Shown here: positions 58,198 to 64,000 of the stretch, piece by piece
Layout of the letters: each line of letters starts with the position of its first letter
Position numbering within the stretch: the first letter of the stretch is position 1
DNA from: a virus
DNA length: 64,000 nt
Virus record (IMG/VR): IMGVR_UViG_3300015263_000653
Span: 1-64,000 of that record
Reading direction: 5' to 3' (one strand)
Notes under the pieces: model-generated
Databases searched by the model: none
Seen by the model: the letters and a program-made list of their open reading frames with translations, nothing else
Told to the model about the DNA's origin: nothing
Made by a program: the position numbers and the translations under genes

Positions 58198-58503
58198 TTA
58201 AGCAGTTTCTTCGAGAAATTCTTTCAAGAAGATTCTGTAGACTGTGGCGTAGGCAATTCCCCACTCTCGACTGTGGGCGTCCTTATTGTCATACCACGCC
58301 ATTGTATGCGCCCACTCATGCAACAAAACGTCAATCGCTTCATGCTCGGGCAGATGCCGGTCAATGCGAATCAGATACCGCTCACTCGAACGACGACAAT
58401 CCCCATCCAGATCTTTCGGCAAAGCAACACGACGGACGCTGACCGGCAAATCAGTGGAGAATCGTCTTTTGAGGAATAGGATGACACGTCTGTAAGTTCT
58501 CAC
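58198..58503 (-). CDS. small HEXXH metallopeptidase-like protein
   Basis: LLHEWAH…H..EWG. Confidence 0.75.
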   Translation of the reverse strand: MRTYRRVILFLKRRFSTDLPVSVRRVALPKDLDGDCRRSSERYLIRIDRHLPEHEAIDVLLHEWAHTMAWYDNKDAHSREWGIAYATVYRIFLKEFLEETA

Positions 58504-58527
58504 AACCGTATTTAACGGTTATGAAAA

Positions 58528-59178
58528 TCAATTCTGCACAAACTGGACCACAACCTCGGGTTCCACCAGTTCATTCAACTCTCGAAATTCCTTCGCATGT
58601 TCTTCACGATCCTCCCAGATTACAACTTTTGTGATGGAAGGATGTGATGTGAGGTACTGGTCGATGATCCAGAACTTCCATGGAAGAGTTTCGCTGGGAA
58701 TGGTTCCCTGTGGTGCTGGCCCTTTATCGCCGAGAAACCAGCATGTAATCTGAGAATCAACGATATCACAGAAGAGATCCTTCTGAGACTTCTTGCGTCG
58801 AATCTCTACCAAGCCGCCATCGCCAGCGATTCGGAGCACCTGATTACGCAGTCCGCCGTGTCGCCCCGTCATCAGGAGCGTGATTGTCTCTGGATTGGCC
58901 TTGCTCTCCTTCAGAGCTTGGCACGGCTCGGGGATGAACAGGTCTTTTGGAGTCGGATCAGGGACCAATGGCGGTTCCAGAGTTTCCCGACGCCCGAACC
59001 AGCCCCGCCGCATTCCGATGAATTTCCCGTGCTTTTTCGAGAGTTCACGGGACTTATTCTTGTCGATGAGCCATGGAATCCCCGTGGCCTTCTCGAATTT
59101 CCGCCTGTTTTCCGGCGTATCCAGAGGTGTTTTGACGAGAGTTCCGTCGAAATCGAAGATGTCTAATTGGGTTGCCAT
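58528..59178 (-). CDS. HAD-superfamily phosphatase (Swiss Army Knife RNA-repair-like HAD)
   Basis: IFDFDGTL; LMTGR; K; IWEDR..H. Confidence 0.85.
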   Translation of the reverse strand: MATQLDIFDFDGTLVKTPLDTPENRRKFEKATGIPWLIDKNKSRELSKKHGKFIGMRRGWFGRRETLEPPLVPDPTPKDLFIPEPCQALKESKANPETITLLMTGRHGGLRNQVLRIAGDGGLVEIRRKKSQKDLFCDIVDSQITCWFLGDKGPAPQGTIPSETLPWKFWIIDQYLTSHPSITKVVIWEDREEHAKEFRELNELVEPEVVVQFVQN

Positions 59179-59307
59179 CCTTGGCTCTCCTTTCACTTTT
59201 GGCCCGAAATGGATTGTCCCACAATTCAATCAAAGGCGCAATACCTTTGTTTCTCTGACACTTGCGGTGAATTCGGGTTCGCTTCCAAATTTTTTTTCGT
59301 GGGACCG

Positions 59308-59335
59308 TTGACAGCCAGATTCCATTCGATATCTT
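59308..59335 (+). promoter_or_regulatory. possible sigma70 promoter
   Basis: TTGACA-16-TATCTT. Confidence 0.5.
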
Positions 59336-59405
59336 ATGACCATCGCACTTGCGAGCGGCCAAAACGAGACGCAAACGAGTGCAGAAAAAAAATGAAAACA
59401 GTGAG

Positions 59406-59434
59406 TTGACAACCGCAACACGAAAGGATAAAAC
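59406..59434 (+). promoter_or_regulatory. sigma70 promoter upstream of the large ncRNA candidate
   Basis: TTGACA-17-TAAAAC with an A-tract upstream. Confidence 0.7.
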
Positions 59435-59437
59435 AAC

Positions 59438-60477
59438 GAACATGACAGTCATCGCCGGGAAACGCAACACCGTTTGTGACACAAGGTTATGACTGTTCAC
59501 TGAGTCCATCGGGAAACCTTAGAAGGGGTAGGAAACTGCAACTTCTAAGAGTACGAAACCCAAAACCATCAAAGCGAAGTAAGGTTGTCTTATAGAAGAG
59601 ATTCTTTAAGACGGCGACTGCTTCGAGGGTGGGCACGATCCGAAAGTTCAGACACTACTTCTGAGATGCGTCAAGGAAGCAAGACTGTTCTATAAGGTGA
59701 GTGGCGATTCAGGCTAACCATAGGTGGAGACACCGAGTCCGTCAGTACAACGGACGAGTTGGGTAAACCTGAGATCGCAAACCGATGGCGGGCACCAATG
59801 TCTGGGTGCAGTTGGTCGTATGAAGCCCAAACCCAGAAATGGGGTAAGGAGAAAAGGGCCAACATCACGGAGGAGTTCAGACCCATGCTGGGAAACGAAG
59901 GCATCGGCAGATGTCTCCAGTAATGATCTGAGCTAACTACCCAGACTGAGAGAGCGGCTAAATCAAAGGGCGTCGTGCCGTGACAAACGGAGACGAAGTA
60001 AGTGGGTGAATAGCCTACCAAAAGCAGCACCCTTTGGGAACGCCGTCCGCAAGGAGAACCAGAGTCGTTCTGGAATACTCTCGATGAGCCTACGAGGTAA
60101 CACGGCCTCGTTAGAAATGGCGCAGGACCGAACCTGCGACGACAAAAAGGAACTTGGGAGAATGACACCGAGGCGAAGGCATTCGAAAGAGATGGTCACT
60201 TGTTGAAGGGCTAACCGCTGGTAACAGGCGTACTCCTGACGATGAGCGAACATTGTTTGAAGTCTGCAAGAGCTAAAAGTCGTCAACCCAAGATCGGTGC
60301 TTGAAAGGTCAAACTGATGGTCGGGGGAGAGAACCTCCTCTGAAGGTGAGTGCTACCTTTCAAGAAGGCTGCGTAAAGACCGAGTAAACGTGGCGGCGAT
60401 ACGGAAAGTGTCGTTGCACAAAGCACTTGCTGAGGGAAGCCCGGTCCAACCGAAAGGTTGGGCCGGGTTTTTCTTTT
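59438..60477 (+). ncRNA. large (~1 kb) structured non-coding RNA candidate
   Basis: no credible ORF; many helices and GNRA loops; bounded by promoter and terminator. Confidence 0.7.
60438..60477 (+). terminator. intrinsic terminator
   Basis: AGCCCGGTCCAACC-GAAA-GGTTGGGCCGGGTT + T-tract. Confidence 0.88.
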
Positions 60478-60586
60478 CCTTCCCTTCCTTGACCATCGGT
60501 CAACTCCGTCCTAAAATGAAACATTCAACCAGCCGTATCGTGCGGCGGTTAGCGACAATCTGTTTCTGATTGGAGGTTTAGCCACC

Positions 60587-60847
60587 ATGGCGCAACCTAA
60601 CGAGTTCGTTCTTGCAAAGGACGACAACGGAAGACATTTCGAAGAATTCTGTGGAGAAGACGAGCCAGACAAGCTCATGGAGATCACCCAGCGAGCTTTG
60701 GCTGGAACTCTGGGAGGCCATGTACCGGTTCCCGGAGAGCGGTATGCGGGGCGTCTGTATGGATACCCCGGTCGCATTCTCGTCAAGCTGACACGTCGTC
60801 GCCCGAAGCACATCCGGCGACAAGGCCGTCTGATCAAAGTGGCGTAG
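60587..60847 (+). CDS. hypothetical protein
   Basis: GGAGG SD; followed by a terminator. Confidence 0.7.
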   Translation: MAQPNEFVLAKDDNGRHFEEFCGEDEPDKLMEITQRALAGTLGGHVPVPGERYAGRLYGYPGRILVKLTRRRPKHIRRQGRLIKVA

Positions 60848-60886
60848 GTTTCTCCAGATGGTTCCCTGCCTCTGGTTTCTGCGGTG

Positions 60887-60926
60887 AGAGCCGCTTCCCT
60901 TCACGGGGAGGCGGCTCTTTTTCTTT
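60887..60926 (+). terminator. intrinsic terminator
   Basis: AGAGCCGCTTCCC…GGGAGGCGGCTCT + T-tract. Confidence 0.8.
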
Positions 60927-62257
60927 CAGTAGATCTCTTCCCAGTTGAGCGATCCGTAACTCAGCGTCGAGCTTCCGGTGACGCTGGTGATCACAATGCT
61001 CAACACGTCGCTGTTTGTCAGCGATTGTTTGGAAAGCAAACCTTCTCCCAGTCCAGAATTTGTGTTGTTGCCCTGAGCGTTGGCCGGAACGTATCCCGAG
61101 GCCACGATCTGTCCGCCAGTGATCGCTGTGGCAGCAACATCTCTTTCTGCCAAGCTGTTGCTGCCGACCGATGCCCATGATGGCCCGGTGAGGGTTCCGC
61201 CGAGAACCACCTCGAAGAAAATGTTCTCCGAAGCGGACAAGACAGAGAAGGCAGTGGGGACTATGTGCCCATGGTTCGTCAGGGTGTTGAAGAGTGCCGA
61301 CTTTCTGACCGAAAGAATCGGCCTTCTCGTTGTGACTGCGATTCCAGTTGCGCCATTGGCTGCTGAGAATGGATAGCCTTCTCTCTCAAGGCCACCCTCG
61401 CTGATCACAGCCGAACAAATCTGGATGAGATCGGTGTTGCTGGCTGATGTTGATGTGTTCTCGATCTCATATCGCAGCGGCAAATTCGCCGTCTGGGTGT
61501 AAACCATCGTGACGAAGTTTGCGTGCAAAAATTCGTGGCAGTAAACCAGAACACCATCGATGTCAAAACCAAAGCGAACTCGGCCCACACCCAACCATTG
61601 AAAGTCGATCACAAAGATGTGTGCTTTCGAGATGTCGAGAGTTTTGCCTGAGTTGCCAGAGCCATCGAGCGGATCGAGATTCCAAGATGATTGAGAAACA
61701 GGCGTGTTGACGACAGAGCCACTGGCCGAGGATCGGATAACCACCTTGAGGTTGTCGGCGTCCTGCTCGAAGAACATTCCATCTGAATCTTCGAAGTATC
61801 CGATTCGCTGAACAACACCGGTTTTCTTGGCTCCCATCACGCCGGTCATGAAGATCTGTTGGCTCTTGCCCGGCAGATAACGGAAGTATCTCTTGGTTGT
61901 CCGAGTTACCTTGTCGCCGCTGGCGGTTCCAACTCTCAATCGAACAGATGATTGGTCGGCCAGATGGGCAATCGTGCCGCCGCCTGATGTCGAATCGCTC
62001 CAGACAAGAGGTTGAGTGTTGTACTGGTGCTGGACTTCGAAGATCGTGAGGGGGTTGGAGACTCGGAACCGACCGAACGCATCTTGTGTTGCAGTTGGGA
62101 GCCGTACAGGAATTGGATTGATCAGTGATGCGTCGGTTGCTGTCCCGTCTGCGCCGTATTGGAGTTTTACTCGTTGGTGCTGTACGCCGCCGATCTCGTC
62201 TGTGGCAACGCTGGCCCCTTTGGTTTTCGGTTGATTGATTATTACGTTGTCTGTCAC
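60926..62257 (-). CDS. probable virion structural/beta-sandwich protein
   Basis: DAFGRFRVSNP.T.F; YLPGKSQ; IDFQWLGVGRVRFG; ANLPLRYEI motifs recur in large-phage proteins. Confidence 0.75.
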   Translation of the reverse strand: MTDNVIINQPKTKGASVATDEIGGVQHQRVKLQYGADGTATDASLINPIPVRLPTATQDAFGRFRVSNPLTIFEVQHQYNTQPLVWSDSTSGGGTIAHLADQSSVRLRVGTASGDKVTRTTKRYFRYLPGKSQQIFMTGVMGAKKTGVVQRIGYFEDSDGMFFEQDADNLKVVIRSSASGSVVNTPVSQSSWNLDPLDGSGNSGKTLDISKAHIFVIDFQWLGVGRVRFGFDIDGVLVYCHEFLHANFVTMVYTQTANLPLRYEIENTSTSASNTDLIQICSAVISEGGLEREGYPFSAANGATGIAVTTRRPILSVRKSALFNTLTNHGHIVPTAFSVLSASENIFFEVVLGGTLTGPSWASVGSNSLAERDVAATAITGGQIVASGYVPANAQGNNTNSGLGEGLLSKQSLTNSDVLSIVITSVTGSSTLSYGSLNWEEIY

Positions 62258-62691: not shown

Positions 62692-64000
62692 TCAAACAGG
62701 TCGCATGTATTCCATGTGTTTGCGGAAGTTGTCGAGTTCGAGGTTTCTCTTTCTCTCCTCGATTCCATCCTTGTCCTGCTGGCCCGTGAACGGGTCGATC
62801 AGATCGAGGAACGCATCGTCGATGGTTTCTTGCCCATCTTCGCTCGACTTGTAGACCTTCACTCTGGGGCTCTTGCTGAAGCCGAGGAAGGCGTCAACCA
62901 CGCTACCGTCGAGGCCACCGAGTTTGGTTCCCCACTCTCGAAGTTTTCGGCCCGAAATACCGCTGCTCATCATGCCGTTGGTGAGATCCATGAGCGTGTT
63001 ACCGTCCATGTTCTCATTCATTCCAAGGCTCTTGATGAGGAAGGCGATCTTCTTCATGTCCTTCTGATCCAAACCAAGATCTTCCAACATCTCAGGTGGG
63101 TTGCCACGCAAGGCCCAAGCGAGCGGCATGTGCTTGTCGCCCATCTCGGAAAGTTCTTTGGGCAGATCGCCGTCGATCATCTTGCCGGGGAACAAGGAAT
63201 CCAGCAGGCCGAAGTCCTTGAACAGCTTCAGGAACTTTCTGGTATCTGTGTCGTCCTTGTCCATGCACTTCTTGAATTCGCCCATCTTGGTCTTGGAGTC
63301 CAGCTTAGACAGAAGTTCTGGGCCAAGTTTGGCAATGGTTTCTCTGTCTTCAACTGGAACCTTCTTCGAATCACCATAGCCGTTCATGAACCGCATATAA
63401 CGCATGAGGCGTTTTGGGTCTTCCTTGAACTTCTTCTTCATGTCGCCGATAGGAACAACCTTGCCCGCTGCCATGTGATGGATTCCACCGTGAAAGTCAG
63501 TCAGTTCTTTGTTGGGGCCGTTGTCATTACTCAGAAGGATATACATCCCGTTCATCGTAAAGTCACGGCTGTTGGAATCATCACCTTGGGTTCCGGGTTC
63601 TCTGTCCCCATCAACGCCACGAGGTGACTTGGTGAAGCATTCGAGTTCGAATTCGTCTTCATTGACCTTGAGTCCGAAGACAAAGGGTCGGCCATTCTTA
63701 TTGGCCTGTTGCACCCAGAACAACTGGTTAGCACCTTCCTTCTTATTCGGATTTGCATGGGCACTCTTAGAAGATGAGCCATCGTTCTTGATGAACGAGA
63801 ATCCGTTCTGCTTCAGAAGGTGATACACTTCGTCTGGGGAAGCATTGGTCGCCAGTTCGATATTTCTGGCTTTGCGGCCTGCGAGATAGTCTCGGACAGC
63901 ACCACCGGCGAGGTACAATTTCTTGCCAGAGATCTTCACTGGCTTGTCTTCACCGCTGGCGTCATCTTTGGACCAACCCCAGTTGCCGCCTGATTTGAAA
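62692..64000 (-). CDS. CCA-adding enzyme/poly(A) polymerase family nucleotidyltransferase (5' end probably outside the window; catalytic motif degenerate)
   Basis: LYLAGGAVRDYL; RDFTMN; DFHGG; FKEDPKRLMRYMRF. Confidence 0.88.
   Translation of the reverse strand, partial: FKSGGNWGWSKDDASGEDKPVKISGKKLYLAGGAVRDYLAGRKARNIELATNASPDEVYHLLKQNGFSFIKNDGSSSKSAHANPNKKEGANQLFWVQQANKNGRPFVFGLKVNEDEFELECFTKSPRGVDGDREPGTQGDDSNSRDFTMNGMYILLSNDNGPNKELTDFHGGIHHMAAGKVVPIGDMKKKFKEDPKRLMRYMRFMNGYGDSKKVPVEDRETIAKLGPELLSKLDSKTKMGEFKKCMDKDDTDTRKFLKLFKDFGLLDSLFPGKMIDGDLPKELSEMGDKHMPLAWALRGNPPEMLEDLGLDQKDMKKIAFLIKSLGMNENMDGNTLMDLTNGMMSSGISGRKLREWGTKLGGLDGSVVDAFLGFSKSPRVKVYKSSEDGQETIDDAFLDLIDPFTGQQDKDGIEERKRNLELDNFRKHMEYMRPV

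What the first reader, a model, noticed from the sequence alone, without database searches (positions are those of the whole stretch)
59438..60477. ~1 kb highly structured non-coding RNA with its own sigma70 promoter and terminator
This is the only large gene-free stretch in the window. It has a near-consensus promoter (TTGACA-17-TAAAAC) and a strong terminator. Local helices include ACAGTCAT/ATGACTGT, CTTAGAAG/CTTCTAAG, GTCCGT/ACGGAC, ACGAGG/CCTCGT, CGCAGG/CCTGCG and GCGGCGATAC/GTGTCGTTGC. There is a possible long-range pairing GCACGATC (~59633) with GATCGGTGC (~60292), plus A-rich linkers and GNRA loops. Size and phage context recall the giant ncRNAs GOLLD and ROOL, but I cannot assign a family. 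An RNA-repair-type HAD gene lies beside it and a CCA-type transferase gene nearby.
Basis: partly seen in the sequence, partly recalled or inferred. Interest (0 to 1): 0.75.

Follow-up and report, generated by a model that had tools for sequence, protein, structure and literature searches.

The report
New abundant 1-kb phage structured RNA
A tailed phage from marine sediment carries a free-standing gene for a roughly 1,000-base, heavily folded non-coding RNA that matches no known RNA family, turns up in soil, mangrove and sediment RNA libraries from several independent studies, and keeps its helices through compensating mutations.

Summary
Window 59441-60477 (+) has no usable reading frame under any stop-codon recoding. 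It folds far better than chance on the + strand (z -9.0). The - strand gives z -2.3 and a neighbouring coding stretch gives z 0.0. It carries 8 GNRA-capped hairpins where 2.6 are expected, and none on the - strand.

The proposed long-range pairing is not supported.

No Rfam 15 family matches, including GOLLD, ROOL, OLE, introns and RNase P.

Near-identical sequence occurs in RNA libraries of at least four studies. One is a 990-base contig spanning 59444-60433. No contig covers the flanking phage genes.

Natural variants and diverged relatives in those libraries show about ten compensatory base-pair changes in seven helices. They also show many G-U-compatible one-sided changes that fit only the + strand, and frameshifting indels that rule out the - strand ORF.

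No DNA relative was found in any collection.

This is a new family of large phage non-coding RNA. GOLLD and ROOL are the closest analogues. Its function is unknown. A fold-dependent, trans-acting role is inferred, not shown.

The parts
59406..59434 (+). Sigma-70-like promoter: TTGACA (59406-59411), 17-nt spacer, TAAAAC (59429-59434)
   Evidence: Read directly from the sequence. The scan did not list it because the -10 box lacks the final T. The longest RNA-library contig starts at 59444, 10 nt after the -10 box.
59441..60477 (+). Transcription unit of the non-coding RNA (about 1.0 kb). The start is inferred at about 59441-59444 and the end at the terminator.
   Evidence: No open frame. Fold z-score -8.98. 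RNA-library contigs lie within 59444-60433 in 4 studies.
59444..59497 (+). 5' hairpin (GACAGUCAU / AUGACUGUU closing stem)
Evidence: Pair probability 0.91.
59506..59788 (+). 5' domain closed by CCAUCGG / CCGAUGG (59506-12 / 59782-88)
   Evidence: Pair probability 0.87. The closing helix is predicted only.
59518..59549 (+). Hairpin CUUAGAAG / CUUCUAAG with an inner GAAA-capped stem
   Evidence: Pair probability 1.00. Compensatory changes occur at 59520/59547 (U-A to C-G), 59530/59537 (A-U to G-C) and 59524/59543 (A-U to U-G) in variants and relatives.
59550..59586 (+). Conserved A-rich core 1, mostly unpaired in the predicted fold
   Evidence: Diverged relatives in two studies match only this stretch (59550-59585 and 59552-59586) and differ on both sides.
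59737..59755 (+). Hairpin GUCCGU / ACGGAC with a 7-nt loop CAGUACA
   Evidence: Pair probability 0.98. Compensatory change at 59742/59750 (U-A to C-G), and 59754 A to G gives G-U.
59791..60301 (+). Large central domain closed by GGCACC / GGUGCU (59791-96 / 60296-301)
Evidence: Pair probability 0.69. Predicted only.
59874..59934 (+). Helix AGUUCAGA / UCUGAGCU enclosing two nested stems
   Evidence: Pair probability 0.99. Compensatory change at 59874/59934 (A-U to G-C) in a relative from run X7.
60059..60157 (+). Conserved core 2: three short hairpins (60059-73, 60092-60111, 60121-38) joined by UAGAAAUGG and an A-rich tract
   Evidence: Relatives in three studies match 60075-60122 and 60106/60112-60157. 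Compensatory changes: 60059/60073 C-G to U-A; 60092/60111 and 60093/60110 (ACGAGG/CCUCGU to CUGAGG/CCUCAG); 60123-25/60134-36 (CAGG/CCUG to UGAG/CUCA).
60302..60362 (+). Long hairpin (UGAAAGGU / ACCUUUCA, with inner stem UCGGGGGAG / CUCCUCUGA)
   Evidence: Pair probabilities 0.94 and 0.99. The indels of variant X14 at 60313 and 60315 fall in its internal loop.
60393..60417 (+). Hairpin GCGGCGAUAC / GUGUCGUUGC
Evidence: Pair probability 0.97.
60439..60477 (+). Intrinsic terminator: 12-13 bp stem, GAAA loop, U5CU4 tail
   Evidence: Read directly from the sequence. The fold shows a perfect terminal hairpin.
58528..59229 (-). Upstream neighbour, divergently oriented: HAD-family gene of the RNA-repair type
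   Evidence: PF10307 HAD_SAK_1, E 9.2e-9.
60587..60847 (+). Downstream 86-aa gene with its own promoter-like site (60489-60517) and GGAGG ribosome-binding site; basic C-terminus; no known family
   Evidence: RNA-library contigs do not reach it.
60926..62257 (-). Virion structural protein gene
   Evidence: phrog_1645, E 1.9e-110. Relatives occur in T4-like cyanophages and in phage HMO-2011.
62692..63939 (-). tRNA nucleotidyltransferase (CCA-adding type) gene
   Evidence: PF01743, E 2.7e-15. phrog_2244, E 9e-24.

Best explanation
Window 59441-60477 is a free-standing gene for a non-coding RNA of about 1.0 kb, read from the + strand of a tailed (possibly very large) phage. It represents a new RNA family.

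Shown here: it does not code for protein. It folds into a multi-domain structure of some 40 helices, many capped by GNRA loops. That structure is kept by selection in natural variants. The RNA sequence is found in soil, mangrove and sediment RNA libraries of independent studies as contigs that match the predicted transcription unit.

Inferred: the RNA is stable and acts in trans in the infected cell through its three-dimensional fold, not through antisense pairing. The most likely mode is that of the giant phage RNAs GOLLD and ROOL, which are abundant, protein-independent architectural RNAs that may self-assemble. It may serve the phage's tRNA/RNA-maintenance module, since an RNA-repair-type HAD gene and a CCA-adding enzyme gene lie next to it.

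My odds: real structured ncRNA of a new family, about 0.9. GOLLD/ROOL-like architectural or self-assembling mode among all possible functions, about 0.35. The confidence figure given for this explanation refers to the identity claim (a real, expressed, structured ncRNA of a new family acting through its fold), not to the specific GOLLD/ROOL-like mode.
For: Not coding: no open + frame under any stop recoding. The 165-aa - strand ORF has no protein relatives. Natural variants carry +1 (after 59923) and -1 (60068) indels inside that ORF.

Structure: fold z-score -8.98 on + against -2.34 on - and 0.01 for a coding control. GNRA hairpins number 8 against 2.6 expected, with 0 on the - strand.

Selection on pairing: near-identical variants carry three doubly substituted pairs, all compensatory. 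The chance that three pairs are hit on both sides is about 1.5e-4. Nine one-sided changes keep pairing through G-U or restore Watson-Crick pairs. These are tolerated only if the + strand is the RNA. Relatives add compensatory changes at 59524/43, 59874/934, 60059/73, 60092-93/60110-11 and 60123-25/60134-36. Two loop changes keep the GNRA form: GCAA to GAAA and GAGA to GAAA.

Expression: 13 RNA-library rows from 5 studies hold the sequence, against 3 DNA rows. A 990-nt contig spans 59444-60433 exactly, and the laid contigs show no loose ends at the outer borders.

New family: no Rfam 15 match at gathering threshold or at E up to 10, for the whole stretch or in thirds.

Not antisense: no complementarity beyond chance to the rest of the 89.9-kb record.

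Context and analogy: phage structural and tail genes and RNA-maintenance genes surround it. GOLLD and ROOL are phage-borne, abundant and of unknown function (bioRxiv 10.1101/2024.12.08.627333).
Against: No full-length homologue could be fetched. Covariation therefore rests on variant tables and 30-letter loose ends, not on a proper alignment with an R-scape-type test.

Some predicted pairs are broken in variants (59528/59539, 59764/59717, 59881/59927, 60385/59810). Parts of the long-range model are therefore wrong.

All laid runs are contigs. They cannot show strand, true ends or expression level, and the tool rates missing flank cover as a weak hint at most.

The -10 box lacks the conserved final T.

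No tRNA gene lies in the 89.9-kb record, unlike the usual setting of GOLLD and ROOL.

Nothing here tests self-assembly, catalysis or protein binding.
Confidence: 0.8

Rival explanations
1. It is a large ribozyme of a new class, for example one that processes, ligates or modifies RNA during infection. It would not be an architectural RNA.
For: Size, multi-domain fold, GNRA loops and conserved unpaired cores (59550-59586, 60112-60157) are what large ribozymes show. RNA-repair-type genes lie beside it.
Against: There is no similarity to group I or II introns, RNase P or any self-cleaving ribozyme model. Contigs run through the whole RNA with no joints (table 5). No substrate is evident.
Confidence: 0.15
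2. It is the RNA scaffold or decoy of a ribonucleoprotein. It would bind or sequester a phage or host protein, such as a nuclease, an RNA chaperone, ribosomal components, or the basic 86-aa protein encoded just downstream.
For: The 86-aa gene follows on the same strand and has an Arg/Lys-rich C-terminus. OLE and 6S RNA are precedents (general knowledge; for OLE). The RNA appears abundant.
Against: The 86-aa protein has no family, no relatives and a poor predicted model. No partner was tested.
Confidence: 0.25
3. It is a long cis-acting leader or attenuator of the downstream 86-aa gene.
For: Same strand and 110 nt apart.
Against: A strong intrinsic terminator and then a separate promoter-like site (60489-60517) lie between them. 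No RNA-library contig continues past 60433. A 1-kb leader for an 86-aa gene has no precedent that I know of.
Confidence: 0.03
4. It is not a phage gene product. It could be an assembly chimera, a reagent or spike-in contaminant, or an RNA replicon (viroid- or Obelisk-like) that merely resembles this DNA.
For: Near-identical RNA appears in very different habitats and studies, while DNA holders are almost only from the source study. No DNA relative was found in any collection.
Against: The sequence sits between a promoter and a terminator in an 89.9-kb phage contig. A spurious ORF inside it is also on record on a contig of 80,764 bases. Libraries differ by 0-2.5% and hold diverged relatives with compensatory changes, which points to natural populations and not to one contaminant. 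No circular joint or back-joint was seen (table 5). No known self-cleaving ribozyme matches.
Confidence: 0.04
5. It is a decayed or spurious region (pseudogene or spacer) with no function of its own.
For: It has no homologue in DNA databases.
Against: It shows strong strand-specific folding, compensatory changes, conservation at 97.5-100% across studies, and presence in RNA libraries.
Confidence: 0.01

Closest known systems
GOLLD RNA (Rfam RF01998, accession from memory and from earlier scan note e1-5322809)
   Same: A phage-borne, free-standing gene. Very large (800 nt or more). Ornate multi-domain fold. Function unknown. Expressed during phage growth.
   Different: No match to the covariance model, even at E up to 10. 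No adjacent tRNA genes. The quaternary structure of this RNA is unknown.
ROOL RNA (Rfam RF03087, accession from memory)
   Same: Phage or prophage origin. Large and highly structured. Very abundant in one host, as abundant as 16S rRNA. No known protein partner.
   Different: No model match. About 400 nt longer than typical ROOL. Not near tRNA islands. Found in soil and sediment, not in rumen or Lactobacillales.
OLE RNA, raiA motif RNA and HEARO/IscB omega RNA (other large bacterial ncRNAs)
   Same: Size class and degree of structure.
   Different: No model match. Those RNAs are cellular or transposon-borne with defined partner genes (OapA/B/C, IscB), and none of those genes is present here.
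Large abundant ncRNAs noted earlier in this scan in other uncultivated phages (e1-5322809, about 1.1 kb in a freshwater jumbo phage; e1-5919408, about 880 nt in a T5-like phage)
   Same: ORF-free phage RNA genes of about 1 kb. They are abundant in metatranscriptomes and match no Rfam family.
   Different: No sequence likeness to this window. Those sit beside tRNA genes or carry a hammerhead, and this one does neither. I did not re-test those notes.

Membership tests
GOLLD (Rfam) | Match to the family covariance model (conserved 3' domain) | tested here: not met
   cmscan of the whole window at gathering threshold gave 0 hits. cmscan of the region at E up to 10, whole and in thirds, gave no GOLLD hit.
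GOLLD (Rfam) | Location next to or around tRNA genes in a phage or prophage | tested here: not met
   ARAGORN finds no tRNA in the window or in the remaining 25.9 kb of the record. The phage origin itself is met.
ROOL (Rfam) | Match to the family covariance model | tested here: not met
   Searches gave no ROOL hit.
GOLLD/ROOL-like RNA nanocages (functional kind) | RNA-only homo-oligomeric assembly | not testable with these tools
   This needs native gels, mass photometry or cryo-EM of the transcript. A palindromic GUAC in the 59743-59749 loop is no more than chance would give.
Large phage-encoded structured ncRNAs (descriptive kind) | More than 500 nt, non-coding, extensive secondary structure kept by covariation, own transcription signals, phage-borne | tested here: met
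   for structure and covariation. for promoter and terminator. for phage origin.
Group I / group II introns, RNase P RNA, tmRNA, rRNA | Match to the Rfam models, and flanking exons for the introns | tested here: not met
   No hits. No tmRNA. The flanking genes lie on opposite strands and are not split.
Self-cleaving ribozyme-bearing circular RNAs (viroid-like, Obelisk-like) | Circular junction in RNA assemblies, a known self-cleaving motif, and no DNA copy | tested here: not met
   No joints in contigs (table 5). Only a chance-level Twister-sister hit (15.4 bits against a gathering score of 34). A DNA copy exists in the phage contig.

The most novel reading that the evidence does not exclude
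This is the first genomic anchor for a widely distributed family of phage RNAs of about 1 kb in soils and sediments. These RNAs accumulate far above phage mRNAs. They would work as a new kind of RNA-only machine, either a self-assembling quaternary structure like the GOLLD and ROOL nanocages or a new class of large ribozyme, possibly tied to the phage's tRNA/RNA-repair conflict with its host.
Probability: 0.3. Interest if true: 0.9.

Novelty: new variant of a known kind. Interest (0 to 1): 0.75.

Why it matters
Only a handful of bacterial or phage non-coding RNAs longer than 500 nt with conserved, ornate folds are known. Each has turned out to be either a ribozyme or something unexpected: guide RNAs, membrane ribonucleoproteins, or RNA nanocages.

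This candidate is among the largest. It has a clean transcription unit and natural variation that already supports many helices. It is present in RNA libraries from several habitats, so sequence diversity for a full covariation model and material for cryo-EM should be obtainable.

Its place beside RNA-repair-type and CCA-adding genes, with no tRNA genes in the record, also offers a new angle on what giant phage RNAs are for.

Tried and rejected
1. DNA relatives. None turned up in any of these searches:
- blastn against 50,697 GenBank phages;
- three exact or degenerate word scans of IMG/VR;
- two scans of JGI metagenome contigs (one search found none; one search gave one hit, L006, shown to be a chance match by nhmmer);
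- two scans of GTDB genomes;
- nhmmer and BLAST on four IMG/VR records whose virion protein is 32-40% identical;
- relatives of the HAD gene and of the 86-aa gene.
Exact-word scans are narrow, so this is not proof of absence.

2. Spurious-ORF trick to fish out RNA relatives through called proteins. The 165-aa ORF found none. The 107-aa ORF found only the window's own product, on an 80,764-base contig.

3. Stop-codon recoding as an explanation of the gap: rejected.

4. The idea that the RNA carries an anti-motif to the 13-mer TAACACCCGCTTG, which occurs 104 times at 741-32477. The best duplex is -15.5 kcal/mol at 59998-60009. It is not better than shuffles (p about 0.13) and other parts of the phage beat it. 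Rejected.

5. Antisense targets elsewhere in the 89.9-kb record. There are only 12-13-mers, at chance frequency.

6. Consensus folding (alifold) of partially reconstructed variants. It was not informative because unknown parts had to be entered as gaps.

7. Absence of RNA-library cover on the flanks (58500-59400 and 60500-61499) in four runs. Word depths were likewise not used to rank expression.

8. The RNA contigs stop short of the terminator hairpin (60406-60433). I do not read this as 3' processing, because a near-perfect inverted repeat breaks k-mer assemblies.

9. Literature searches for a published match found none. They cannot compare sequences.

10. Protein atlas look-up for the 86-aa neighbour: no usable hit.

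Full report
**Where it lies.** The window is the first 64 kb of an 89,856-base IMG/VR virus record. CheckV rates that record 18% complete, so the genome may be several times larger. The record is a tailed phage. The gene at 60926-62257 (-) is a virion structural protein (phrog_1645, E 1.9e-110), with relatives in T4-like cyanophages and in phage HMO-2011. The next 26 kb hold a tape-measure protein and baseplate wedge proteins. Upstream lie ClpP, a histidine phosphatase and an RNA-repair-type HAD gene (PF10307). Beyond the structural gene lies a tRNA nucleotidyltransferase. The record contains no tRNA or tmRNA gene.

**The observation.** The stretch between the HAD gene (58528-59229, -) and an 86-aa gene (60587-60847, +) has no usable frame. 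Every + frame has 17 or more stops of all three kinds, so no stop-codon recoding opens it. The - strand ORFs (165 aa and 107 aa) are what a T-poor + strand produces. The 165-aa ORF has no protein relatives. The 107-aa ORF matches only itself.

The promoter-like site TTGACA-17-TAAAAC (59406-59434) and the terminator (stem 60439-60468, GAAA loop, U-run to 60477) are both present. The -10 box lacks the final T, and the consensus scan does not list the site.

**Is it folded more than chance?** Yes, and only on one strand.
- The 997-nt + strand RNA folds at -360.3 kcal/mol against -305.1 +/- 6.2 for dinucleotide shuffles, z = -8.98.
- The - strand gives z = -2.34.
- A 997-nt piece of the neighbouring structural gene gives z = 0.01.
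- Hairpins with GNRA tetraloops on stems of 3 bp or more number 8 on the + strand, 2.6 +/- 1.6 in shuffles (p = 0.003), and 0 on the - strand.
The model instead pairs 60296-301 with 59791-96 (p 0.69) and 60287-92 with 60153-58 (p 0.98).

**Known families.** cmscan against Rfam 15 found nothing in the whole window at gathering thresholds. With permissive filters on the region, whole or in three parts, it found only chance-level hits, the best being 20 bits against a cut-off of 36, mostly on the terminator hairpin. The RNA is therefore not GOLLD, ROOL, OLE, raiA, HEARO, a group I or II intron, RNase P, rRNA, or a known self-cleaving ribozyme.

**Evidence from public sequencing runs.** Twenty listed runs from seven studies hold the stretch or part of it. 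Thirteen are on record as RNA, from soil, marine sediment, mangrove, other sediment and an 'outdoor' sample. The only DNA holders with 0.19 or more of the words are two runs of the probable source study and one small-share run.

I laid four RNA runs from four studies on 58500-61499. All laid pieces fall within 59444-60433. Run X14 has a single 990-nt contig that aligns end to end to 59444-60433, at 98% identity. Its 5' end is 10 nt after the -10 box. No laid contig reaches the flanking genes.

What counts is the positive result. The same discrete unit was assembled in RNA libraries of independent studies at 97.5-100% identity. Shorter contigs of diverged relatives sit alongside it. They share only 59550-59586, 59891-59964 and 60075-60157.

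**Selection on base pairing.** I placed the substitutions of the near-identical variants on the predicted structure.
- Three pairs are substituted on both sides, and all three stay paired: 59520/59547 U-A to C-G, 59530/59537 A-U to G-C, and 59742/59750 U-A to C-G.
- Random placement of the same number of changes hits both sides of three or more predicted pairs with probability about 1.5e-4.
- Nine one-sided changes keep a standard pair (A-U to G-U, C-G to U-G, U-G to C-G).
- Changes through G-U would be C-A mismatches on the other strand, so the + strand is the RNA.
- Five to six changes break a predicted pair (59528, 59764 and 59927; 60385 in the minimum-energy fold only; and 60163 and 60182, whose partners lie outside the contig). 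Apart from 59528, these are in long-range helices, which I therefore regard as unproven.

The 30-letter loose ends of the diverged relatives, aligned to the window, add more compensatory changes:
- 59524/59543: A-U to U-G;
- 59874/59934: A-U to G-C;
- 60059/60073: C-G to U-A;
- 60092-93/60110-11: ACGAGG/CCUCGU to CUGAGG/CCUCAG;
- 60123-25/60134-36: CAGG/CCUG to UGAG/CUCA.

Loop changes GCAA to GAAA (60050) and GAGA to GAAA (about 59598) keep the GNRA form.

Indels in variants fall in an internal loop (60313, 60315). Two others would frameshift the - strand ORF (+T after 59923, -1 at 60068). Substitutions in the candidate ORFs show no third-position bias.

**What it is not doing.** It is not an antisense regulator of anything in the 89.9 kb available. 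Complementary words do not exceed 13 nt and occur at chance frequency.

A tempting 10-bp complement to it exists at 59998-60009, but it is no better than shuffles (p about 0.13).

It is unlikely to be a leader of the 86-aa gene, because a terminator and a second promoter-like site (60489-60517) separate them.

**What it most likely is.** It is a stable, trans-acting, architecturally complex RNA made by the phage. The closest known things are GOLLD and ROOL. Those are phage and prophage RNAs of 600-800+ nt and unknown function. They can be as abundant as 16S rRNA, rise during lysis, and assemble without protein into 8- or 14-mer nanocages (bioRxiv 10.1101/2024.12.08.627333, read).

This RNA shares the setting, the size class, the ornate fold and the apparent abundance. 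It does not share their sequence or structure models, and it lacks their usual tRNA neighbours. It does sit beside a CCA-adding enzyme gene and an RNA-repair-type HAD gene.

Self-assembly, catalysis and protein binding are all untested. I put a GOLLD/ROOL-like architectural role at about 0.35, an RNP scaffold or decoy at 0.25, and a new ribozyme at 0.15.

**Limits.**
- No full-length relative could be retrieved from DNA collections.
- A proper alignment with a significance test for covariation therefore remains to be done.

**Earlier notes of this scan** describe similar large, abundant, family-less RNAs in other uncultivated phages. They share no sequence with this one, and I did not re-test them.

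Noticed in passing
window 741-32477 (+): The 13-mer TAACACCCGCTTG (up to 2 mismatches) occurs 104 times, all on the + strand, where about 1 is expected by chance. It punctuates an array of small genes. It looks like a phage-specific promoter or RNA-processing signal, and none occurs after 32477.
   Followed up: partly
window 62692-63939 (-), and the whole record: The phage encodes a tRNA nucleotidyltransferase and an RNA-repair-type HAD protein. Yet ARAGORN finds no tRNA or tmRNA gene in any of the 89.9 kb available.
   Followed up: partly
window 60112-60157, in run X5 (soil): A diverged relative of the RNA, sharing only this core, has contig depth about 100. The near-identical variant in the same run has depth about 8-10. 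The same relative (same flanking 30-mers) is present in run X14 of another study. The family is diverse, and different members may dominate in different habitats.
   Followed up: no
window 59490, in run X8 (mangrove): The contig that starts at 59490 is preceded by TCCGATCT, the end of an Illumina adapter. This suggests that many library fragments end exactly there, either at a possible processing site inside the 3' arm of the 5' hairpin or at a fragmentation hot spot.
   Followed up: no
window 60886-60919: A 15-bp G+C-rich hairpin with T-runs on both sides lies between the convergent 86-aa gene and the virion structural gene. It is a likely bidirectional terminator.
   Followed up: no
window 59963-60286 (-): A 96-aa product of this spurious ORF is on record in the protein collection on a contig of 80,764 bases. 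That length differs from the 89,856-base record, so a second assembly of the same or a nearly identical phage exists.
   Followed up: no
L007 4692-9983 and 15141-16700 (record 68692-73983 and 79141-80700): A tail module with a 1,763-aa tape-measure protein and baseplate wedge proteins follows the window. The RNA gene therefore sits at the border between the auxiliary RNA-metabolism genes and the virion module.
   Followed up: partly
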